A stretch of DNA of 64,000 nucleotides from Microthyrium microscopicum (lineage: Eukaryota), in the NCBI GenBank assembly GCA_010405405.1, contig MU004235.1, positions 510,538-574,537 of the forward strand, given 5' to 3'. Below are positions 27,722 to 53,834 of the stretch, one piece after another (positions within the stretch are counted from its first letter, which is position 1; every line of letters starts with the position of its first letter). A model generated the notes under the pieces. That model ran no database searches, was not told the DNA's origin, and saw nothing but the letters and a program-made list of their open reading frames with translations. The position numbers were made by a program, and so were the translations under genes.

Positions 27722-28697
27722 AAACCGTTCACAGGTCTGATACGTTGTCCATATCGCCGTGAAGGACATGTTTTTCTTTCTTGAAGAGCGCGGCATTTTT
27801 TCAGGCATTGTTTGGAGTAGCGGCTGTGTTCTGATTATTCTTTCCTATTCTTTCAACAAATTGCGTGGTTCACCGCACCAATTTTCCTTTCCAACGGCGA
27901 AAAATTCTCTCTCGTCAAAAACATACTCCTGCGATAAATGATACGACGAGACCAATGTATCATCAACCTAAATTGGGCGGCTCAATTGCTTTTACAGACT
28001 CAACTTCCGAGTCTTGCATTGCTACACTTGGCAGCTGGTATGGCTCACGCCTCGCACGAAACCACTAATACCTCTTTTCCTCACTGGAACAACTAGACCG
28101 GCGGCAAATTGTCTTTTATCTCGAATCGTCTCCCAGCACACACAAGGGTGGCGACATTGTTCATATCGTTCGCGAGGCGGTCACATACCGCACATCGTTA
28201 TTTCATGACTGGGCCACCACGCGCAGCATGTCTCTTTTCGTTTCACATCGCGTCTTCAGAATAGCATCGGTAGGCTTCTTGAAGAAGGAAGCCTTTTTCT
28301 TTTTTCCGCGTTTGTTTTCGTTCTTTCGCGCATTCATTAGCGTTTTGTACATATCATAGCAAGGGTAGCATTTTAGCGGGCTGCAGAGCCGGTTGTGAGG
28401 TTGGCCCGTGGATATCAGACGTAAGCAGGAGAGTCCTGGAGTTTGGCACTCATTTGCAGTGACAAAAGTCTTCGTACATGAATTCATATGCCATAAAAAA
28501 CATAAATTTGCTCTAGCTGACCAGTGCTTTCTTTAAGTGATGGACCTCAACACCATTGAAGATTCTTCACGATAGGCCTAATTAGGAATCCTGGACGCCA
28601 CCATTTTCCACGTGACGTACTCCTCAATCCCCTTTCGACGACCCGTTTCAATCTTGCTCTTCAATCAAAAAACCCGTCAGACCCTTCAGTCACTGTA

Positions 28698-30831
28698 ATG
28701 CCACCTTCAGTTACTTGTCCAATCTGCAATAATCTCGATCCGCGCAACCACCCATCTTCAAGGCATCGCGATACCCCTGGCCGCAACGCCTCCGCCAGCC
28801 AAGATGTCTCCCTCTATCTACCACTAGACGCGCTATCACTCGCCCGAACGCGTCGCAAATGTCGCTTCTGTGACGTTCTTGTGCAGGCGCTTGATGGATG
28901 TCTTCCCGACCGTGGCAGTCGGCGGGCAAAGATGGGGCTTGAGATTGGATGGAAGAAGAGCGTGCGTATCTCGGTTTTCGATGGTGGAGATGTAGTTGAG
29001 GTTTATAGGGGAAGTGGTAAGTTATTGAGTTTGCCTGGTTCGAGTTTAAATGTGTATTGATCCAATGGCGCTGTGTTTTGGATTGAGACTGGTTTGCCTG
29101 GTACCGAGTTGTTGGGTCAGCCTTGTTCTCAGCCTTATGTGTTTTCGATGATCCTCTGTTGCCTTGGACATTGCATTTGCTGATTTAGCGATAGACCAAC
29201 CATCCCCTTGGCCCGCACTGGGGTCGGTGGTAGATATACCGCGCCGAGCGGACTCGGAGGAGACGTTCGATTTTCTGAGAGCTTGCGTCGAGAAGTGCAA
29301 GCTTGACCATGAATGTACTTGTGGCGGGAGCAAAGCCAAGTCTAGGGTATCAGCTCCAGCTCGACTGTTGAAGATATCAAAAGATGGAAAATCGATCAAA
29401 TTGGTCATTTGCTCCAAGAGATCACCAGCATATGTTGCTCTTTCTCACTGCTGGGGCAATGACCTTCCAATGACAACGACACAGCAAAATCTTTCGCACC
29501 AAGAGAATGGATTTGCTGTTTCAGAGCTACCACCTCTGTATCAGGATTCTATCGAAGTAGTACGACAGCTTGGGTTGGAGCACATATGGATTGATTCTCT
29601 TTGCATTGTGCAGGACTTAATCCAAGACTGGACTAAAGAGAGTACAAAAATGGCCGCAATCTACTCGGATGCAGACTTTACCATTGCAGCAACAGGTACA
29701 AAGGACAGCTCTCACCGGTTTCTTGACTCCACGAGGAAAAGAGCTCGCGTTAGCTACACCAATACAAAAGACAAGAAGTTTGTACTCAGGTCTCGGCTAG
29801 TCCAGAGTCACCATCCGAAACTTGATTTGAAGCGGCCAGCGGCACTGATAGGCCCATTGACACACCGCGCATGGACGCTTCAGGAGCATGTCATGTCAAC
29901 TCGCATCTTCCACTTCACCGCTTCTGAAGTTGTCTTTGAGTGCTGTGCCTCATTTTCATGCCAGTGCAAACCGACATTGAAGAAGTGGCCAACCACACCT
30001 GGTATCTTCCAAGAAATCTCTTCATGCAAATCTGCTCGACTTAAGCATGAAGAGTGGCATCGCCTGGTTGAGCAATATACCCGTCGCAGTCTAACTCGGC
30101 CAGCAGACAAGTTCCCTGCACTTTCTGGCCTGGCTAGTGAATTTCAAGGCCTAGTAAACTCAAAGTATTGTGCTGGTCTTTGGGAGAGCAACTTCTTAGT
30201 GGATCTCCAATGGTTTTCAGCGCCATGGCTGGAGAGTCCAATCACGCCACAAACACTGGAGACCTATCGAGCGCCTTCCTTTTCATGGGCCAGTACGGAT
30301 ACGCAGGTTAGCTATGATCAGTACAATGACGATTACCTTGAGAGCGTGGAGTTTCTGACCAGCGTGACCGAGATCCACATTGAGACAGATCCGCTTAATA
30401 TATTTGGTGCAGTAGGACTCAACAGTTATGCTAAACTTCGAGGTCCAACAATGCACGCGACGCTTGTTGCCCCAGAGACGTCTGACGATGATAGTTTCCA
30501 CTACTTTCTCAGAATTTGTGACTATCCTTCAGCACATGTGTATCCTGACTGTCGACTAGTGGTGGATAACGACAACTCAGAGTTTCTCCGTGAAACTGAG
30601 ATTCGACGACACCGTCCTGGTGATGAATACTCGGCCTTTCAGGCAAACGTACTTTGTCTTGTCCTCTGCGTTAGTGGCAGGCTAGAGATGGCGCATGGGC
30701 TGGTTCTTGGACTGCCTTCGAGAAAACTGGGGCATAATAATCAGAGCAACACTTACGAACGAGTTGGGTACTTTTCTTGCGGAAGCGATGCGATTATGGA
30801 CGATACGGAACAAGATATTGTCCTAATATAG
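28698..30831 (+). CDS. HET (heterokaryon incompatibility, PF06985-type) domain protein; intron 29017..29194
   Basis: Motifs PARLL, YVALSHCWG, IWIDSLCIVQD, MAAIYSDADFTIAA, RAWTLQE, YCAGLW, RAPSFSWAS; N-terminal CxxC pairs. Confidence 0.93.
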
Positions 30832-39548: not shown

Positions 39549-41676
39549 ACGTGATCGTCAGATCTGTGGAATTTCCGTCTGGAAAAACCACATGGAAAAA
39601 TATTCTACGAGTTGTTCCTAATTTTATCTTGCTTGCGGAACACAAGATTACCGAAGGCCTAGTGCAGCCACATCGTGAACGTGGCGTCGAAATGCTTCAG
39701 ATGTACACTCAAGATCTGTTTCAGACCTTTGAGAAATAATGCATACAGCGTTCGAGAGATCTTCTCGCTTAGCTGAAGGTCCTATCAACTCAACTTGGGC
39801 TGAGAAGAGACGACGATGTGGTGGGTGTCAAAGGTCTGTTATTCTAATTTGATCTTCCTTCGACCTGTTTGGTCGCAGAAGATCCCTTTTTTTGTTCTAT
39901 TCTACTTTTCTCATGTTATCCATGGACTTTCTACGGCTGAAAAAGAGACATGTTGGTTACAAGTCTTTGATTTCTTTTATGTTTGCTTTACACCTTATTC
40001 CCAGCGATTCGAAATATCCGCCTACTACGCGAACCTGTATTCTATAGCAAAGCTAGGATCTCTCTGCCTCTTACATGGCAATAATGTAAATGATTCTCAT
40101 CAAATCCCATCACACAAGAAGAAAACCTCACAACCAGTATGTATGTCCGGGCTTGTCGTTTCAACAAACAATCCTTGATGGGCGCGGCCCGCCTTCGTTG
40201 TGCCTCAGGATGCCACCAAATCCCAGCAGAGTTAATATCAAGTTTATATTACCTAGCGACACATCAGAGTGCTATTTTAATTTTGATGACGAGGCCCCAA
40301 ACCCGCGCCTACCGGCAAAAATAATCTGCCCAGTGTTGAACCCTACCAACAGTTGAGAGGATGCGATTATACATCTCGTCGTCACCACGTTTGTCTGCAC
40401 CTGGCGCTCTATGCGAGTTTTCTTGCCCTCAAATGGCATGGCCAGATGATCGAAATTTGATGAGGACTCCGTAAGGATCACGTACTATGCGAATCTGATG
40501 CTGGCAATGTCGCAGGCTCGCAGCTCCAACTTGAACCCTCAGTACATTTTCTTTTCGTGAAATTATTTGATTGACTGGTAGCATTTTGACTTTTTACCAC
40601 GCGGAACAAAAATAGCAGTCTGGAGAAGACTTTACCTCTGAAATCACAGAAAAGTTGCTGAATCTCGAACGATCTGCCTACCATAAGCTTCACCTTACGT
40701 GACAAAGTTACGCGACTGCCCTGAGGTAGAAAGTGGGGCAATATACCGCACCAGATACGTCAGAAGAATCAAAGCAGGAATTAAATAGGATGAGCGATAT
40801 GGAGGATCTGAACAGCCCATCATAGCGCAGTGATCAGTGGGGTGGAAGAGCAGCAGATCAGCGACCACGATCCACGGCCATCAGGTACCGACCTAACCGG
40901 TGAACGAGTACGAAGGCCTACAACAATTCATCATAGATACACCAGCAAATAGATTGAAAAATGCGGCCCCGAAGGCGCCGACAGCAAAAGAGACTAGAGA
41001 TATGCTTATCAACAACTTGGTCGAACAAAATATGTGTCCGCCAGGCACTTCTAACCGAGAAACCGGGAGCGGCCGTGCGATACTGTTTTCAGGTACCTTT
41101 TCCGATCTTAGCTTCGGACTTTCGGTCTCTGGTTGAGCGTGGAATATGAAAAACGTGTGTAGGAGGCTTCAATATAAGGAACCATGGAGAGATTTGCACA
41201 CCCGGCGGAATGGAATTATATTGCTGAGAAAGATGGGCTAGTAGGGTCCAGTAGGGGCCTGTGATTATCCGTCTTTCGTATCGAAAAGGATCACCGGATC
41301 CCCCTGCGTCGCTCAGGAAATACATTTAATCAATATGAAAAGTGATGCGCGTTGAATTACCTGGTCTTCGGCTTGATTCTTATAATAGAAATCATATTTG
41401 TAGGCTGTATAGGGCAATGATTAATGGCACGCTCCATCTCAGGGAGATCACAGTTCAAACACTGATTTAGGTGGGAGAAATGGTAAATGGTGTGGTATAT
41501 GGGCCTGTGATCATTATGCCCTCTATTTGCAGCCAATGTAAATGCATAAAACAAGCAAGGGTCCGAAAACATGGTCGAATTTGCAAGGAGATTCTTCTGG
41601 CATTTCCGTAGAATGTCTCATTGAGAATAATTAGCACAAAGTCTTGCGACTAGCTTGGAAACCATAAGAGGACCTA

Positions 41677-42798
41677 TTAAGGACGACCAAAGTTCTTGGG
41701 AGGATCTGGAGCTGGACCCTCCGGAGTCACGTATGCCTATTGTCACCGGTTAATCTCCGACAAGCTGCGAATAGAGTATTAGGGAAGTAACAGGACGAAC
41801 CTTTGTCATGCCTCCATCGACCACAAAGTCAGTACCGTTCACAAAGCTGCTTTCGTCGCTAGCCAGAAATAGAACAGCTTGAGCTTGCTCAATTGCTTCA
41901 CCAAACCGACCAGTAGGAAAATGAATCTCCCGACGCAGTCGTTTCTCTTTATCATCGCCAAGCCAATCTTGCAATAGTGGAGTACTGGGTTAAAACATGT
42001 TAGTTTGGATCAAGGTTTCGACAAGAGCTTCAAAAATATGAAAAAGGGCGGAATACGACATACTTGAGCGGGGCGGGACACAGAGCGTTGAATCTGAAGC
42101 CCTCTCGAGCGTGAACGATGGCCAGTTCTCTCGTCATGGCCAGCACGGCACCTTTGCTTGCGGTGTAAGCCAACTGAGGAGTCGCACTGCCGACAAGCGC
42201 AACGACGCTAGCAACATTGATGATGCTCCCCTTCTTCTTGTTGTGCTTCCGCAAGCTCAGGATTGCATGCTTGCTACCAAACCAGATGCCTTTGACATTA
42301 ATGGCCATGGTAAGATCCCAGATCCGTTCAGGGGTGTTGACAGCATCATCATCGTCCTTGTGCATGATTCCAGCATTGTTGAATATCACATCTAATCCGC
42401 CCCAGGAGTCCAGGTGCTGAATAAGAGCAGCCACATCGTCTTCTCGGCTCACATCGCAGAGCTTGGTCTCAACTTTGACCGCTTTGGGAACAATGTCTAG
42501 AAGCTTTTGTTTGGCTTTATCAAGACCGGGTCCAGAGATATCTGCCATGAGGACACTGGCGCCCTCTCGAGCAAACAGCACACATGTTTCAAAGCCGATG
42601 CCACTATATTGTCCGTCAGCGTTTGAGCATAAGAAACAAAAAGCCACAATGACAAGCCAAGGTGAACGTGAAGATGTTGGATAGGGCATTGATAGTGCGA
42701 TAGCGCCTATCTCTAGCGAATACTCACCCAGCGGCTCCAGTCACCACGGCGTTTTTGCCAGCGAGTCTACCAGATGGACTGGCGATAGTTTCGGACAT
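41677..42798 (-). CDS. Short-chain dehydrogenase/reductase (classical SDR), 3 introns
   Basis: After splicing: [23 protein letters not shown], catalytic YTASK within [39 protein letters not shown]. Confidence 0.93.
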
Positions 42799-43601
42799 AT
42801 CGAGCAGAGGAATAAGATAGAGGTCAAGACGACGGAATGTAGGTTTATATTTTGATGTTGATTGTGTGTTGGCAACTGACACGTACCCAACTAATGTAGA
42901 GCGGTACCGTAGAAGGAATGGTGGGGCTGGTGTATGACTGGCTGGCTAATTGATAGGTAATCCAATGCGGAAGTCACGATCAGAGCCGCACGAGACGTGA
43001 ATTTAGTGAAGCGGTGATGACAAAGTAGGCAGCTTCTTGCGGTGTGATTGGTATCTTCAGCGGCTGACTTGCTAGTACATGTCTACCTAGGTAGGCAAGG
43101 AGTGGACGTTGGATTAAGCTGTTGCCAGTTGCCCATTGTGGCGACAGCGATAAGGAGCACGAACCATCAAGATGCAAGCGTGACACATTCTTTGGGAAAG
43201 GCGGGGCCTCATATCGCAGTGATTTGCAGATAGCCCGCATGTCTACAAAGATGGGAAAAATTGATATTTTAACTGATTCTTTAAGCTTCACGATATCGCC
43301 GACGTACGAAATCCTGTTGAGTAAAAAGCCTGGGGCTTTGAGGCGACAATGGATCATGTTAGATTAGCCTCTTAGAGCAGTGGGAGTCGGAGACGAGGTG
43401 CATCCCTGAACGCCACGTTTACAGGGGTAGAGCTCCTTTCACAACCAACCTTCTACGGTTAGCGCCTTTTCATCCAGCCTCGTTGCACATGACGCTGTAC
43501 AAACGGCGCTTTTGACATTGGAACTTGTCGTGAAGAAATCTCTCTCGATCACACTCATATTCTCTTCTGGCTACTGTTAATCTACACGTCCTCTTTACAC
43601 C

Positions 43602-45299
43602 ATGGGAGCCGATCAAGATGTCCAAGTCACCATTGACAATCTCGCCAACATTCTCCAGGACGACATCAGTGTCAAAGTCGCCGGCGTAGATATCGATGGC
43701 CAGCTCCGTGGAAAGCTCATGGCTAAGAGCAAATTCTTGTCCGTTGCCAAAGAAGGATTCGGCTTTTGCTCTGTGATATTCGGCTGGGACATGCACGATC
43801 AGACATATTTCAGAGAGCTCAAGATAAGCAACAAGGAGAATGGCTACAGAGATCTAATCGCGGTCCCGCATCTCAAGACGTTCCGACGAATACCTTGGGA
43901 AAACAACATACCGTTTGTCCTCGTGAGCTTCATGGATCCAGATACTATGGAACCTATCAGTGCTTGTCCTAGAGGGCTCTTAGCTACCATTGTGGACAAA
44001 ATTGAAGCGAAAGGATATCAGGCAATGGCTGGTGGTAAGTTTGATCTGTTTTCGGCTTTTTGCAGCATACATCTCTCAACTCTAGAAGCCAATTCTGTCT
44101 TCAAGTCTTGATACTGATGTGTGATTTAGCTGAGTACGAGTTCTTTCAATTCAGAACTCCAGGCGCAGATAATGGAACCAACCAAAGTGCTCCATCAACT
44201 TCTGCCTTCCTGCGAAACAACCCGGTTTCTGCTCTTCCGACCATCACGGAGGGTATGTTCGGGTATAGTTTGACACGACCAGTACATAACCAGGAGTACT
44301 ACTACAGCATCTTCAACACGTGTGATCAATTCAAATGTGGAATTGAAGGATGGCATACGGAGTCTGGTCCTGGTGTATTTGAAGCTGTGAGACCACTTGT
44401 TTGACTGTCCTTGTTTCTGCTAACCGGAACAGGCCCTTCTCTTCAACGAGATCCGAGAAATGGCAGACAGAGCAGCACTGTTCAAGTGAGGATCTTACCA
44501 CTGTCTACGTAAAACATTACTAATGTACGTCTTAGACTAACAGCCAAGGCACTGGGTACCAAGTTCGGCATCACGCCCTGTTTCATGGCAAAACCACGTG
44601 AAGGACTACCTGGAAACTCTGGTCATATGCACATCTCTCTCGTTGACAAGAGCGGAAAGAACCTCTTCTCGCGCGAATCCAAGGATGAAAATGTAGAGTG
44701 GTCAGATGCTGCGTTCCTCTCTGATATGGGCCGCCAGTTCCTAGCTGGTGTACTCGACGGTCTACCAGACATCATGCCCATTGTAGCGCCAACTGTCAAC
44801 TCATACAAGAGACTCGTCGAAAACTTCTGGGCTCCAGTCACTGTTTCTTGGGGTCTCGAGCACCGCGCTGCGTCAATTCGGGTGATTTCTTCATCAGCAA
44901 ATTCAAAGAGTTCACGACTGGAGGTTCGAGTATGCGGCGCAGACGCGAATCCACATTTGGTTCTGGCGTCCATCCTTGCTCTTGGCTGGCGCGGAGTTGA
45001 GAAGAAGATGGACATTCCTGTTCCTCCACTTGGAAAGGGGGATGATGTTGGCGGGGAGTCTGATAAGGGACAGCGTTTAGCAAAGTCCCTGAAAGAGGCT
45101 ACGGCCCAGATGACGAGAAAGGGTAGTGTCGCAAGAGAAGTATTTGGTGATGAGTTCGTTGACCACTACGGTGGTACTCGAGAGCATGAGTGCCGCATAT
45201 GGGACGAGGCTGTGACTGACTGGTATGTTTTGTGTTTCTATTGAAAGGCTTTTATTAACAAATCGCAGGGAAGTTAAACGATACATTGAAACTGTGTAG
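43602..45299 (+). CDS. Type-I glutamine-synthetase-like protein (probable gamma-glutamyl-amine ligase); introns 44035..44129, 44387..44432, 44486..44535, 45223..45268
   Basis: DIDGQLRGK, ACPRGLL, AEYEFF, WHTESGPGVFE, FMAKP..GNSGHMHISL, PTVNSYKRL, RLEVR..GADANP, VTDWE..RY. GSI-like rather than the eukaryotic GSII; no N-terminal amidohydrolase domain, so not FluG proper. Confidence 0.92.
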
Positions 45300-45914
45300 A
45301 CAGACGCTCATATCTACCTCATTCAGGTGATTCACAGCGTCTTGGAGTTGTCGATATCGGATCGGTTAAACAGTAGTAAATAAATGGTAATGATATTGGT
45401 TTCGAAGCTACTGAAATGGGTAGAAATCAAAACTCTTGTCTCATCTGGTGATATTTAGCCCATCGCCTTATCTCCGGAAGCTCTGCTTTGAACTTGCAAC
45501 TACATTATCAAGGCGAAAGTAATCCCTCTCTTGGTGTCATAGAAACACTGCATCAATGGGCAGATCAGCGGGGCAGGTTGATACTGTCGTCATATGAATC
45601 GCAAACAGCATTTATGGGCAACCAAATCCGCCTCAACGACCACTTCTGGCATCCAATTGCATCTCAATTTGGACCCGAGCTGCATCTTTTGTATCTCCGC
45701 ATCCAATTGGAAAAGGGCCATGGTTAAAGCTAGTTGTGCGTTTCGATCAACCTTCTCCAGGACACAAATAGCTCCCAGATCTCCCCGCCTCGGCACAAGC
45801 TCCAGCTCTATTTTCCGACATCTCATTGACATCACAACTTCCTCTCGTTCTTCTGCAAAACTTACATTCACACCTCACCGATTCTCCTCTAGTGAACCCA
45901 CTTGTAAAACAAAC

Positions 45915-46865
45915 ATGTCTCTCCACAGCGCTGCCTGTAAGTCACATAACCCAATAACCCATCACAACTCTGCTAATACACCTCAGGCTGTACCGTCCCA
46001 CCAGTAGTCGCCAAAGACTACAGCCCAAAAGGCAAATACACCACCGTCGATGGCCTAAAAACCTGTACTCACATCCCTCCTTCCCAGACCATCCCTTCTC
46101 TAACAATCCCAGATCACACCGGCGAAAGCTCCGCAAAACATGGCATCTTCGTCGTATACGACATCTTCGGCTTCTTCCCCCAAACAATCCAAGGAGCCGA
46201 CATCTTAGCCTACGGCAACAAAGACCGCAAATACCAAGTCTTCATGCCCGATTTCTTCGACGGCAAGCCAGCAGATATCTCCTGGTATCCACCAGATAAC
46301 GAGGAGAAGGGCAAGAAGTTGGGCGCGTTCTTTGAGGGGCCGGCGGCACCGCCGAAGACTGTGGAGAAGTTGAATTCGCTTATTGCGGAGTTGAAGAAGA
46401 GTCATTCGGAGATTGAGTCTTGGGTATGTTAGAAGAGATGGACTGGGGTGTAATAGATGGCTAATTTGAGATTAGGGTATTGTGGGCTATTGCTGGGGTG
46501 GAAAGATTGTGAATCTCGTTTCTCAGGCTGGAACTCCGTTTAAGGCGGCTGCTGCTTGTCATCCTGCTATGGTTGATCCTGCTGATGCGCCTAAAGTCAC
46601 TATTCCGATTGCTTTGCTGCCATCGCAGGACGAGGATAAGGATGCTGTGGCGAAGTATGAAAAGGCACTGACTGTTAAGCACACCGTGGAGTGGTTTCCG
46701 ACCCAAATTCATGGATGGATGGCTGCTAGGTACGCGTTCAAGTTCAAGGGGTTGATAAACTGTACTAACACAATCTGCAGGTCTGACTTGGAGGATCCAA
46801 AGGTCAAGTCTGAATATGAGCGCGGCTACAAGATTCTACTAGACTTTTATCACGAAAACTCGTAA
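45915..46865 (+). CDS. Dienelactone hydrolase family protein (AIM2-like), multi-exon
   Basis: MSLHSAACC.VPPVV start, YDIFGF, MPDFF, nucleophile GYCWGGK, HPA, HGWMAAR; four short introns with canonical signals. Confidence 0.9.
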
Positions 46866-50127: not shown

Positions 50128-52257
50128 TCAAGCAACCACCACGCGAACCCGTCCCAGATTATGCACCTTAGCCCACTTTGCGGCAGTATCATTTTGAAAT
50201 GGACGTTGAGAATATGCTCGTAACGCGGGGAAATATGTCCCCTTGAGCCAGAATCTTGAACTCGTCTGGACAGTAGCGCGCTCGGAACTAGCTGAAGCAT
50301 CGACTTGCAAAGTCCCTGTATTGAGATACAGCCCCAGCCCATCAAAGTCCAGTTCCGCAGAAATGATCTTGCCAATTCCCGGAGGCAGTTCTATTACACC
50401 AGAGAACTCCACAGACTCACCAACTTTGACATCCGCGCGCTCCTTGCCGTTGGCCTTGAGGGTCACTACAGGCTGTATGCCTAGGCGCTGAGCGGCCGAG
50501 TCGGGTAGTTGGATATTGCCGTCGACCACGGTGTAGTTTGTGCTTGCTGGGGCGGGAACACCATTTTCTACCCATTGTACCAAGTCACGAAGTGCTTGTT
50601 GGATCACGGGTATGTAGGACACGATCCTTGTGTTCTCTGCTGGATACATGGTAGGTATCATTCGATCGGGAGGTGTGTGCATGCTCTTGTCAATCATCCA
50701 GGTTCGATAGTGTTTGTCCATGTCGGCACCCAAATGCTTCCGTACTTGATTCTCGTACCACCTGGACTCCCATGGAAGGGCGATCTCGTCCATCTGTGAT
50801 TCTACAAGAATCATCTTGGTATTAATTTTGCCGTTCTGTGTAGTGCCAGTGCCAGAGAGTTCATCATAGCGCTGCGAGAGAAGTGGTCGTTGTGGATATA
50901 TTGGCTTGCCATCTTTTCTGAATTGTTCCCATACTGGGTACTCTGGACCTGGGTCCTGATGTCTGTGGTATGTCTGTGATGCAAGAAATATTGAGTTGTC
51001 AATGATCACACTGTCGCCTGCCTTCATCAATCCTAATGATGGCGAGTTGCGCTCTCCATATGTGATCAAGGCAATGGGTCCAACCATGAAGAGTGTATAA
51101 ACCCATTTGCCAGCGGCCGCACCAGTCTCCAATTTGATTACTGAGCCAGTAAGATCCGTTGAAGGAGCATCTGATAGCCAAAGAGCAAGAGGAGCATTAT
51201 CAGTGACATTCTTGACGTTCTCGGGAACTGGAAAGTCAATTCCAAGGGCCTGTACTTGCTTCGCTGTCAGCATTGCCTTGATGGTAGTCTTATGGCTAAC
51301 TCTCGCTTTGAGTAATGATTGCGTTGCATTAGATCCAAGGTATCCTGGTTTGGTCCAAAAATCGTCAAAGTAGGTGGGATCCATTCGGTACACATTGTCC
51401 AACAACTGAGAAAACACTGCAGCATAACTTAAATAGCTCCTGGTATATCGAAACCAGGCGGCAGGTGCCAGTCCGAACCGTGTAACTTCTTGCAGTGCTT
51501 CCTTCTTCTCAGTGTTCAAACCCGCATAGATATCGCCACTTCCGCCTACATCAGCTGCGTCCACGATTTTCTCGTAGTCATCTCCAATGATACGCATAGC
51601 ATGCATCAGAACCGTAAAGACGTTTGGTATTGCCACAGGCGATGCTGCAATGAACGGCACAGATCCATCCCAGATCCCACTAGTACTCTCAGAGCATGCC
51701 TGAGCCTTATAAGCGCCGCCGCTGCCACCATAGACATAGCCATAGGTTCGATGTGGCCCATACATCTTTTGCATGACCTCTCGCGCAAACCGGGCAGTTG
51801 CCGCACTACCTCGATATCCAGGAATTGTTGGATCCGATCCTGGCAATGGGTCCAGACGACCTTGGTTGGACTCTACCATTGCAGCTCCAGAATCGAATCC
51901 AAATAGTCCCATATCAGGAAGATCGACGCCTACAACAAAGGTTGCGAATACGACATTTTCGCTGCCAGAAATAGCTGAAACTGGTTGGAAGAAGCGGCCT
52001 TTGTAGATTTCCTTAGGAGGCAGATAAAATGAGAACCTCAGGTCAGTCCCGTTGAAGATGCCGTGAACATAACGATGGCGTACAGGTTTGTCGCGCCATT
52101 CGTCCTTGTCGATATGAGGCTTTGTATAGAGTGGATCAATTGGACTTGGTTCGTCATTAAGTCCTATGATTTCCCTTCCTTTTCCAGAGGCGACCAGTGA
52201 TTGCCCCGTTATTGCGAACACTGTTATGACACAAGTGAAAATAGTGTTGGACCACAT
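50128..52257 (-). CDS. Intronless 709-aa secreted alpha/beta-hydrolase-like protein (tannase/feruloyl-esterase-like, C-terminal PKD-like beta domain)
   Basis: Uninterrupted 2130-bp ORF; N-terminal hydrophobic signal; GxSxG motif YGGSGG; candidate Asp (MDEIALPW) and His (SMHTPP); C-terminal beta-rich domain ending NLGRVRVVV. Confidence 0.85.
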   Translation of the reverse strand: MWSNTIFTCVITVFAITGQSLVASGKGREIIGLNDEPSPIDPLYTKPHIDKDEWRDKPVRHRYVHGIFNGTDLRFSFYLPPKEIYKGRFFQPVSAISGSENVVFATFVVGVDLPDMGLFGFDSGAAMVESNQGRLDPLPGSDPTIPGYRGSAATARFAREVMQKMYGPHRTYGYVYGGSGGAYKAQACSESTSGIWDGSVPFIAASPVAIPNVFTVLMHAMRIIGDDYEKIVDAADVGGSGDIYAGLNTEKKEALQEVTRFGLAPAAWFRYTRSYLSYAAVFSQLLDNVYRMDPTYFDDFWTKPGYLGSNATQSLLKARVSHKTTIKAMLTAKQVQALGIDFPVPENVKNVTDNAPLALWLSDAPSTDLTGSVIKLETGAAAGKWVYTLFMVGPIALITYGERNSPSLGLMKAGDSVIIDNSIFLASQTYHRHQDPGPEYPVWEQFRKDGKPIYPQRPLLSQRYDELSGTGTTQNGKINTKMILVESQMDEIALPWESRWYENQVRKHLGADMDKHYRTWMIDKSMHTPPDRMIPTMYPAENTRIVSYIPVIQQALRDLVQWVENGVPAPASTNYTVVDGNIQLPDSAAQRLGIQPVVTLKANGKERADVKVGESVEFSGVIELPPGIGKIISAELDFDGLGLYLNTGTLQVDASASSERATVQTSSRFWLKGTYFPALRAYSQRPFQNDTAAKWAKVHNLGRVRVVVA

Positions 52258-52768
52258 CTTGTAAGTTATCCAAACTTCATGGTGCTTTGAGTTTTCGAAG
52301 GCATTTTGGCCCTTTATACTCTAGAGCTGAACAACAGCCCAAGCAAACCAAGACTACTACCGATCTTACATTGTTCGTGAGGTCAACACGCACGAGGAGC
52401 TTGGGTAGACTATTGCAGCACGGTGAGAACTATAATATAACGACACTTACCATTTTGACCCCTCTGCCCTATAGGTAAGTGACAACCATTGGCAGATTAC
52501 TTGACTTTTAGGACGGTAAATAGACTGAAGCCATCTTCTATAATGAACTTAACAGTTCCATGGCTCGTTGCAACGATAATTCGCTGAAGATCATGTTGGA
52601 GCGCAGTTTTTGGTCCTGATCACCGGGGGTGTTGGCTGCGAGCTGTACTCCATGTTTCTTTCTGGTTTTTTGAACACTCTCGCAATCGGTTAGACGAACT
52701 GAAGCAAAAACCTACTCCGAGCTGTAATACATAAAGTATAGTCTTCATATCGTACAACAGGATTGCCA

Positions 52769-53834
52769 CTAAGACGACAATAGTTGCCTATTGGTGTTTG
52801 TCGCGTCCTCAGATTTTTCATGCTGCAAGCTGTTGCCACAAAGCAATATCAATACGCCTTGCGATATCAAATGGGATGGTACATACCTCTCTTGTTGCTT
52901 CGCTAGCAAGGTAGAATTTACTTGCGGAAGCAACCGCCCTGTAGCGCTAATCTCCTTAAGCTCTTCCAGGGAACAAGTGGAGGGTGACCTGGGGCGTTCT
53001 CTGAGTATCAATTCAGGATAGTCATCCAGCGATTCATATCGAGGGTCATCTTCGTATCTTTCCAAAGCCAGTCATGGAATTCTGCCCGATCTCCAATTCA
53101 GCCCAGCTGATGAAACTCGTGCAGCTTTTTCAAAAGGCAAGCGGTGATCGAGGAAGTCCTAATATACATTTTCTCCGATGCGCTGAATCCGATTTTGTTA
53201 ATCGGTCGACAACGGCACTGGCCCAGTCCACCAAGACAATTCGAAAAGCTCCATTCCCCGTGTCCTGGTACACAAAATTTCGTGCATATACGTCGCGATA
53301 GGTAACGCCTCGATGTTCTATGAGCTTTTCAATCTCAAAAATTATCGCGACAATTTCCTTCTTGACTTCAGCGCTGTATTCTGCAGGACTGAGTCGCATG
53401 GGTGAAGGGCCAGGAATATATTCCATCAGTATCACACGTACAGGACGAAGCTCAAGTCCTTCTGCCCATCATGTTTCGATGTTACAAGTCGAGCAGCCAT
53501 GGGATTTTGGGACCTCCTGGCCTCCGAAGAGAGGGTCTAGTTCCATATACATTATGCCAAAGCCTCTGGAGAATACTGCACGTCGGCACTTCGAGGCACG
53601 TCATAACCTTCATCGGCTCTCAAGTAAAGCGGATCAAAGATTTTAGCAGCCACAATTCCAAAACTGCATGATCCAACTACAACCTGTGCACCACATTCCT
53701 TTCCCACCGCAATGTGTTGCGCGAAGGAAAATCGAAGCTGAAGGCGGTGGAGGATTGTGTTTCATTAGTATAATCTCTGCACCAACTTTGTATGGGAACG
53801 ATCGTGATTTCGGAATCAAACGTTTCTTCGACAT
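52769..53834 (-). pseudogene. Pseudogene of a fungal atypical protein-kinase-like gene
   Basis: Fragments in shifting frames: FPYKVG; GAQVVV..VAAKIFDPLY..ADVQYSPEALA*; YMEL..EVPKSHG..ET*W..RPVRVILMEYIPG..YRDVYARNF..IVLVDW..PRSPLAF*; FHDWL/ERYEDDPRY. Several stops and frameshifts. Confidence 0.8.

What the first reader, a model, noticed from the sequence alone, without database searches (positions are those of the whole stretch)
50128..52257. Intronless bacterial-type secreted hydrolase: horizontal transfer candidate
Seen: a 2.1-kb ORF without introns, whereas the other long intact genes in the window are all spliced; it has a signal peptide, a GGSGG nucleophile elbow and a C-terminal beta domain. 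From memory, the motifs (IDKDEWRD.PVRHRYVHG.F.GTD.RFSFY.P...Y.GRFFQ; QQALRDL..WVE.GV..PAST.Y; GTYFPALR..SQR; NLGRVRVVV) match an uncharacterised family mostly seen in bacteria (actinobacteria, sphingomonads, Firmicutes), loosely annotated as tannase/feruloyl-esterase-like or PKD-domain proteins. Inference: bacteria-to-fungus transfer with a eukaryotic signal peptide; possibly acts on plant aromatic esters.
Basis: partly seen in the sequence, partly recalled or inferred. Interest (0 to 1): 0.7.

Follow-up and report, generated by a model that had tools for sequence, protein, structure and literature searches.

The report
Bacterial tannase-like hydrolase domesticated by fungi
This intact, intron-free fungal gene encodes a secreted enzyme of an unstudied, mostly bacterial branch of the tannase and feruloyl esterase group; an ancestor of a few leaf-litter and dung fungi most likely took it from prokaryotes long ago, other fungi took a distant cousin separately, and what it cuts is still untested.

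Summary
The 709-codon intronless ORF (50128-52257, minus strand) is real and lies among spliced fungal genes in one unbranched contig. The host is Microthyrium microscopicum, judged from a named match to the gene's paralog. The protein is a serine hydrolase related to tannases, feruloyl esterases and MHETase, with the triad S179-D490-H527 aligned. It lacks their active-site disulfide, carries a beta-barrel in its lid and ends in a PKD-like domain. With a second intronless paralog, Trichodelitschia, Eremomyces and about 11 fungal-looking metagenome proteins it forms one clade (100/100) nested among prokaryotic sequences. Many other ascomycetes (Aspergillus, Fusarium, Cadophora) carry a distant relative next to Streptomyces and Paenibacillus proteins; a single fungal origin is rejected (AU p 5e-13). 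So the transfer is supported, but it is old, was followed by duplication, and happened at least twice in this family. No donor can be named. Activity on plant aromatic esters is a guess. A sound new case of a well-known process, in an uncharacterised enzyme subfamily.

The parts
50128..52257 (-). Intronless CDS, 709 aa secreted tannase-like serine hydrolase with PKD-like tail (P0001)
52186..52257 (-). Probable signal peptide (about aa 1-24; cleavage site judged by eye)
   Evidence: hydropathy 2.76; pLDDT under 50 for aa 1-32; 14 of 14 full-length clade members have a hydrophobic N-terminus
51643..52140 (-). Alpha/beta-hydrolase core, N-terminal part (aa 40-205)
   Evidence: model strands and helices; profile match to AoFaeB2, FoFaeC, tannase and MHETase
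51715..51729 (-). Nucleophile elbow G177-G-S179-G-G181; aligns with GCSTG of tannase-family enzymes, with Gly in place of the disulfide Cys
   Evidence: S in 119 of 122 rows
50980..51324 (-). Small beta-barrel domain (aa 312-426) inserted in the helical lid; common barrel fold, no clear homologue
   Evidence: best Z 8.6, rmsd 3.7, 84 aligned
50788..50790 (-). Predicted catalytic acid D490
   Evidence: aligned to the tannase-family Asp; D in 121 of 122 rows
50677..50679 (-). Predicted catalytic H527, followed by Thr, not Cys
   Evidence: H in 119 of 122 rows
50131..50475 (-). C-terminal PKD-like beta-sandwich (aa 595-709)
   Evidence: feature score 0.92; TM 0.83-0.88 to models whose aligned part is PKD; PF00801/PF18911 on homologues; weak profile hit to collagenase domains, E 0.075
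52313..52318 (-). TATAAA 56 bases upstream of the ATG; function not tested
   Evidence: sequence only

Best explanation
The gene is a domesticated prokaryotic gene. An ancestor of some early-branching Pleosporomycetidae (Microthyriales, Phaeotrichales, Eremomycetales) acquired a member of an uncharacterised tannase-like hydrolase subfamily from a prokaryote. It duplicated early, took on host base composition and N-glycosylation sites, and stayed intronless in this genome. The protein is secreted (inferred) and works as a classical two-step serine hydrolase: S179 attacks a carbonyl, H527 and D490 relay the proton, and the acyl-enzyme is then hydrolysed (residues shown by alignment; chemistry from established knowledge of the fold). 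The large lid with its beta-barrel probably selects the substrate, and the PKD-like tail probably spaces or tethers the enzyme (inferred). Most likely substrate: a carboxylic ester of an aromatic acid from plant litter. My odds: transfer from prokaryotes 0.9, serine hydrolase 0.9, carboxylesterase 0.7, aromatic-acid ester 0.35.
For: Clade A has 100 SH-like support in a 301-row FastTree, 99 SH-aLRT in a 69-row quick IQ-TREE and 100/100 in a finished 30-row search, inside a 26-row clade (100/99) whose other 18 rows are prokaryotic or prokaryote-type metagenome proteins. Prokaryote-type homologues are 47-52% identical to P0001, against 10-18% structural identity to solved tannase-family enzymes. 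Clade A plus clade B as one group is rejected (delta lnL 457.6, p-AU 5e-13, 34 rows); clade A plus the two Asgard rows is rejected (p-AU 0.0015). The two paralogs are not sisters (p-AU 2e-7). GC 0.49 and GC3 0.47 fall within the range of eight neighbouring exons (GC 0.47-0.52, GC3 0.39-0.62). Sequons average 4.1 in 14 clade A proteins and 1.1 in 157 others; hydrophobic N-termini in 14 of 14 against 18 of 157. Model pLDDT 91, pTM 0.91; top structural matches FoFaeC, MHETase, tannase (E about 1e-10; Z 18.0, rmsd 4.6, 381 aligned); the family profile finds AoFaeB2 at 1.6e-11 and aligns all three catalytic residues.
Against: The trees use LG+G4 without a mixture model and have no outside root; the sister of clade A is unresolved and P0001 has a long branch (0.68). 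Most rows on the prokaryotic side are unnamed metagenome proteins. Eleven full-length clade A members are metagenomic and their fungal origin is inferred; 0 of 80 metagenome loci fetched belonged to clade A. Each protein search listed only the best 120 of 867-2403 hits, so absence from other fungi is not proven. No Pfam model reaches its cut-off for P0001. Structural likeness to tannases is partial (TM about 0.3), and peptidases and lipases score nearly as well (Z 16-17). Prokaryotic gene neighbourhoods point to no single pathway. The sequon comparison counts related sequences as independent.
Confidence: 0.8

Rival explanations
1. Vertical inheritance: one ancestral fungal (or ancestral eukaryotic, Asgard-derived) gene, lost in most lineages.
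For: The family is widespread in ascomycetes: 28 of 120 rows are named fungi of four classes (classes from my own knowledge). Asgard archaea carry close homologues.
Against: AU tests reject A+B and A+Asgard. Each fungal clade has its own prokaryotic neighbours at about 50% identity, while P0290 of clade B matches the two clade A paralogs at only 35-42%.
Confidence: 0.05
2. Recent, species-specific transfer, or bacterial contamination of the assembly.
For: No introns; half the residues identical to prokaryotic proteins.
Against: One unbranched 69-kb contig holds the gene and spliced neighbours at even depth; host-like GC and GC3; a paralog on another contig beside fungal genes; closest relatives are fungal.
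Confidence: 0.03
3. One entry into fungi, then spread between dung and litter fungi by fungus-to-fungus transfer rather than by descent with losses.
For: Only three named fungal genomes hold clade A; two are dung fungi (PMC7082219, passage). No named Venturiales protein appears in those lists although that order is described as close to Microthyriales (PMC7452091, passage).
Against: All three named hosts are placed in Pleosporomycetidae, with Eremomyces and Microthyrium in one subclade, which fits descent with loss; branching inside clade A is largely unresolved.
Confidence: 0.15
4. The origin is as stated, but the enzyme is not an aromatic esterase: it cleaves another bond (lactone, amide, acyl group on a glycoside or polysaccharide, aliphatic polyester oligomer).
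For: No active-site disulfide and a different lid. Neighbours in prokaryotes include rhamnosidases, apiosidase-like, GH43, GH3 and GH116 enzymes in some loci and beta-oxidation or amidohydrolase genes in others. Atlas neighbours include 3-hydroxybutyrate oligomer hydrolase clusters at scores near 0.8 (leads only). The genome already has about four standard tannase-family loci.
Against: The closest solved structures and profile hits are all aromatic-acid esterases; carboxylesterase genes recur in 5 of 69 locus groups.
Confidence: 0.5

Closest known systems
Tannase-family feruloyl esterases FoFaeC (PDB 6FAT, 8BHH) and AoFaeB/AoFaeB2 (3WMT, 6G21); Aspergillus niger tannase (7K4O)
   Same: Alpha/beta-hydrolase core with a large inserted lid; Ser-Asp-His in the same order and aligned positions; secreted glycoprotein type.
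   Different: 12-18% identity; no Cys beside the catalytic Ser or His and only one Cys in the mature chain; beta-barrel in the lid; PKD-like tail; prokaryotic ancestry; substrate unknown.
Ideonella sakaiensis MHETase (PDB 6QZ3, 6JTT)
   Same: Best whole-chain structural match (Z 18.0, rmsd 4.6, 381 aligned); Asp-to-His spacing 37 residues here, 36 there (D492, H528; PMC7568301 passage).
   Different: MHETase has five disulfides including the active-site one and a calcium-bound helical lid; P0001 cannot form these disulfides; calcium site not tested.
Prokaryotic 'PKD domain-containing' / hypothetical proteins of the same family (e.g. Ca. Angelobacter, Acidoferrales, Dehalococcoidales, Freyarchaeota records)
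   Same: Full-length colinear, 47-53% identical, same triad and tail.
   Different: Most lack a hydrophobic leader (139 of 157) and have few sequons; none has a tested function that I could find.
Fungal clade B 'PKD domain-containing proteins' (Aspergillus, Fusarium, Ilyonectria, Cadophora, Verticillium, Elsinoe)
   Same: Same family and architecture.
   Different: About 35% identical; group with Actinomycetota and Paenibacillus proteins; separate origin; absent from this genome.
Pfam DUF6351 (PF19878) and Abhydrolase_10 (PF20091)
   Same: Weak matches around the elbow and the acid/His region.
   Different: Scores 17.6 and 18.4 bits, below cut-offs 22.4 and 23.

Membership tests
Tannase / feruloyl esterase family (PF07519) | Pfam gathering score | tested here: not met
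   17 bits against cut-off 29.8; three distant prokaryotic members do pass with partial matches (39.5-55.5 bits)
Tannase / feruloyl esterase family (PF07519) | Alpha/beta-hydrolase core with large lid | tested here: met
Tannase / feruloyl esterase family (PF07519) | Ser-Asp-His triad at equivalent positions | tested here: met
   profile alignment and conservation 119, 121 and 119 of 122 rows; distances in the model could not be read
Tannase / feruloyl esterase family (PF07519) | Active-site disulfide between Cys next to the Ser and Cys next to the His (PMC7568301 passage) | tested here: not met
   G178 and T528; no Cys among the five commonest residues of either column
Tannase / feruloyl esterase family (PF07519) | Calcium site in the lid | not tested
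   lid not alignable by sequence
Tannase / feruloyl esterase family (PF07519) | Hydrolysis of gallate, hydroxycinnamate or benzoate esters | not testable with these tools
   needs an assay
PKD domain | Beta-sandwich matching PKD models | tested here: inconclusive
   no Pfam PKD hit for P0001 itself; structural and feature matches to PKD-labelled models; PKD hits on homologues
Prokaryote-to-fungus horizontal transfer | Fungal sequences nested among prokaryotic ones with support | tested here: met
Prokaryote-to-fungus horizontal transfer | Vertical alternatives rejected | tested here: met
   AU tests
Prokaryote-to-fungus horizontal transfer | Physically integrated in the fungal genome | tested here: met
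   (runs may be the assembly's own source)
Prokaryote-to-fungus horizontal transfer | Patchy distribution of the clade among fungi | tested here: inconclusive
   3 named genomes in the best 120 rows of two searches; no genome-by-genome test of fungi was possible
Prokaryote-to-fungus horizontal transfer | Donor lineage identified | tested here: inconclusive
   sister group unresolved
Prokaryote-to-fungus horizontal transfer | Orthologues in other fungi also intron-poor | not testable with these tools
   DNA of the Trichodelitschia and Eremomyces genes was not available; both paralogs here are intronless

The most novel reading that the evidence does not exclude
This subfamily (no active-site disulfide, beta-barrel lid, PKD-like tail) carries a hydrolytic activity not yet described, useful enough in decaying plant matter that filamentous ascomycetes captured it at least twice from different prokaryotes and kept it as a secreted enzyme beside their standard tannases; it would be a new class of fungal biomass-degrading (possibly aromatic-polyester-active) enzyme.
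Probability: 0.25. Interest if true: 0.65.

Novelty: new variant of a known kind. Interest (0 to 1): 0.4.

Why it matters
Transfers of prokaryotic enzymes into filamentous fungi are well known (my own knowledge), so the event itself would not surprise a specialist. What is useful is the enzyme family: more than a thousand homologues across bacteria, archaea and fungi, no solved structure, no curated model that reaches its cut-off, the tannase/MHETase scaffold without the disulfide that family conserves, and two independent captures by fungi. Repeated capture suggests a real advantage in litter, dung or soil decay, and a secreted fungal member is an easy handle for the first assay of the family.

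Tried and rejected
Direct sequence search of PDB with P0001: 0 hits at E up to 1. NCBIfam: only a chance SDR hit at E 0.044. A metagenome scan meant to fetch DNA around clade A members returned 80 loci, none closer to clade A than to prokaryotic proteins, so their fungal context was not seen. Gene-neighbourhood analysis of 92 prokaryotic loci (69 groups) found no conserved partner; the commonest neighbours were ABC transporter parts and short-chain dehydrogenases (8 groups each), then amidohydrolases, carboxylesterases and TetR regulators (5 each); two recurring clusters were antisense-frame artefacts. The inserted barrel gave no Foldseek match at E up to 0.001 and only common-barrel matches by VIA; a SAF-like lead (altronate hydrolase, E 0.5) was not confirmed. 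Expression: no holder is on record as RNA; one run guessed to be RNA shows spliced neighbours and covers the ORF only at depth about 4, which could be DNA carry-over, so expression is not established. Run X6 held scattered low-depth identical pieces and was not used. The careful 69-row tree did not finish; the quick tree is quoted. No complex prediction was run, as no binding is claimed. A phylum-wide prevalence search was not obtained. Literature searches listed no paper on this family or this transfer; I saw listings and abstract openings only, the library lacks most subscription papers, and supplementary tables of fungal transfer screens were not searched.

Full report
Observation. It aligns over 94-99% of its length with homologues, has no canonical intron pattern inside, and is crossed without a joint from 51053 to 52354 by a low-depth contig of a run that shows 19 spliced joints in the surrounding 17 kb. 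A single 69-kb contig spans the whole stretch without differences, and another run covers the gene and its neighbours at even depth; these runs may be the source of the assembly. Neighbours are ordinary fungal genes: a short-chain dehydrogenase, a glutamine-synthetase-like gene, a cyclophilin, a HET gene, an ABC transporter, a carnosine methyltransferase. Contamination is therefore rejected. Lack of introns by itself proves little: a gene beside the paralog has a 1219-codon open frame.

Host and paralog. The genome holds a second copy on contig C18, 48% identical, with no stop inside the match; it is a 690-aa intronless ORF with a hydrophobic start. It is identical to an NCBI protein of Microthyrium microscopicum except for 11 residues that the database model cuts out; homologues keep that segment, so the annotated intron is probably false. 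The contig length agrees. Passages of PMC7082219 (figures not seen) place Microthyriales, Phaeotrichales and Eremomycetales in Pleosporomycetidae, put Eremomyces and Microthyrium in one subclade, and list Eremomyces and Trichodelitschia as dung fungi.

What the protein is. Pfam gives only sub-threshold hits to Abhydrolase_10, DUF6351 and Tannase, and no PDB sequence matches the single protein. A profile of 122 homologues finds the tannase family (AoFaeB2 1.6e-11, FoFaeC, tannase, MHETase) and aligns GGSGG with GCSTG, D490 with the catalytic Asp and H527 with the catalytic His. These residues are kept in 119, 121 and 119 of 122 rows. The AlphaFold model (pLDDT 91, pTM 0.91) matches the same enzymes best by Foldseek (E about 1e-10, TM about 0.3) and VIA (MHETase Z 18.0, rmsd 4.6, 381 aligned; FoFaeC and tannase within 1 Z; peptidases close behind). 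Three things differ from the tannase family as described in passages of PMC7568301 and PMC13618265. The cysteines flanking the catalytic Ser and His are replaced (G178, T528) and the mature chain has one Cys. The lid holds a six-stranded beta-barrel (aa 312-426) that, folded alone, resembles only common barrels (best Z 8.6, rmsd 3.7, 84 aligned). A PKD-like sandwich ends the chain. So it works like a tannase-type serine hydrolase but fails two membership tests for PF07519. The genome has about four standard tannase-family loci besides (9 exon matches).

Origin. The search with P0001 found 1621 homologues; of the best 120, two besides the query are named fungal proteins (Trichodelitschia 53%, Eremomyces 49%), seven are named prokaryotes, and the rest are unnamed. 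With the paralog as query the first 13 rows are clade A and prokaryote-type proteins follow at about 53%. In a FastTree of 301 rows (of 334 available; rows outside 560-900 aa and the duplicate of the paralog left out) 15 rows form clade A with support 100, inside a 175-row clade otherwise prokaryotic or metagenomic. IQ-TREE agrees: 99 in a 69-row quick tree and 100/100 in a finished 30-row search, with the sister group unresolved. P0001 and a few metagenome fragments at 59-63% identity branch first in clade A; the two paralogs are not sisters (p-AU 2e-7), so the duplication is older than the split from the other named hosts if the gene was inherited by descent. Eleven full-length clade A rows are metagenomic. 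I read them as fungal because 14 of 14 full-length members have a hydrophobic leader against 18 of 157 other homologues, 8 of 14 have an RQ or RRQ pro-peptide end (typical of fungal secreted proteins, from my own knowledge), and sequons average 4.1 against 1.1. I could not see their DNA. GC and GC3 match host exons, as expected for an old transfer.

A second fungal clade. The Atlas showed a cluster dominated by Ascomycota. Representatives were traced to Elsinoe and Verticillium, and a search with the latter gave 28 named fungal rows of 120 (11 Aspergillus, also Fusarium, Ilyonectria, Cadophora, Pseudogymnoascus, Byssothecium, Aaosphaeria, Parahypoxylon, Cylindrodendrum) mixed with Streptomyces, Actinomadura, Nonomuraea and Paenibacillus at about 50%. 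They are not: forcing them together costs 457.6 log units (p-AU 5e-13; 34 rows). Forcing clade A with the two named Asgard proteins is also rejected (p-AU 0.0015). This genome has no clade B copy. Support for clade B as a single group is weak (61 and 87), so it may be more than one event. Limits: no outside root, no mixture model, a long branch for P0001, and lists cut at 120 rows.

How it most likely works. Shown: fold, triad residues, hydrophobic leader, five sequons. From established knowledge: Ser-His-Asp catalysis through an acyl-enzyme; in MHETase the lid is crucial for activity. Inferred: secretion, and ester hydrolysis in decaying plant matter. The substrate is open. Prokaryotic neighbourhoods (92 loci, 69 groups) are mixed: glycosidases for rhamnosides, apiosides and glucosides in some, carboxylesterases and amidohydrolases in 5 groups each, beta-oxidation genes in mycobacteria. 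I put aromatic-acid esters at 0.35. Expression is not established.

Novelty and verdict. Five literature searches (listings only) showed no paper on this family or transfer; PMC7191039 (passages) and PMC7452091 (passages) were read for background. Earlier notes of this scan report other intronless bacterial-type genes in this genome (unchecked), so such transfers are not rare here. The finding is real and the transfer reading holds, as an old and repeated event. It is a new variant of a known enzyme type and a new case of a known process. Interest 0.4.

Noticed in passing
window 1-21000: AT-rich block (GC about 0.22-0.25) with a strong RIP signature (TpA/ApT 1.75; (CpA+TpG)/(ApC+GpT) 0.09): RIP-mutated repeat region.
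   Followed up: partly
L002:1420-3492 (G000:C18): The NCBI model of the paralog removes 33 bases in frame that homologues keep: probably a false intron in the annotation.
   Followed up: partly
L095:766-4425 (G000:C18, beside the paralog): A 1219-codon open frame of a multi-pass membrane protein, recalled as OSCA/TMEM63-like; an unusually long exon for a native gene. An AAA ATPase lies on the other side.
   Followed up: no
window 41500-45300: Divergent pair of a short-chain dehydrogenase and a glutamine-synthetase-like gene, both spliced, followed by a gene recalled as dienelactone-hydrolase-like at 45900-46865.
   Followed up: no
window 53130-53468 (-): Short frame resembling a protein-kinase-like fragment just upstream of the hydrolase (resemblance recalled, not searched).
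   Followed up: no
window 28560-30831 (+): HET-domain gene with one apparent intron.
   Followed up: partly
L089:1032-6800: A metagenome locus with three tandem paralogs of this hydrolase family.
   Followed up: no
P0013, P0130: Asgard archaea (Freyarchaeota, Jordarchaeales records) carry close members nested among bacterial-type sequences, probably also by transfer.
   Followed up: partly
clade B (P0290, P0329-P0437): Fungal clade B is as diverse as, and possibly basal to, its Actinomycetota/Paenibacillus neighbours; the direction and number of transfers there is open.
   Followed up: no
L009:4-11271: In Bifidobacterium margollesii the homologue sits between two alpha-L-rhamnosidase genes, an apiosidase-like gene and a sugar transporter: a lead for plant glycoside deacylation.
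   Followed up: no
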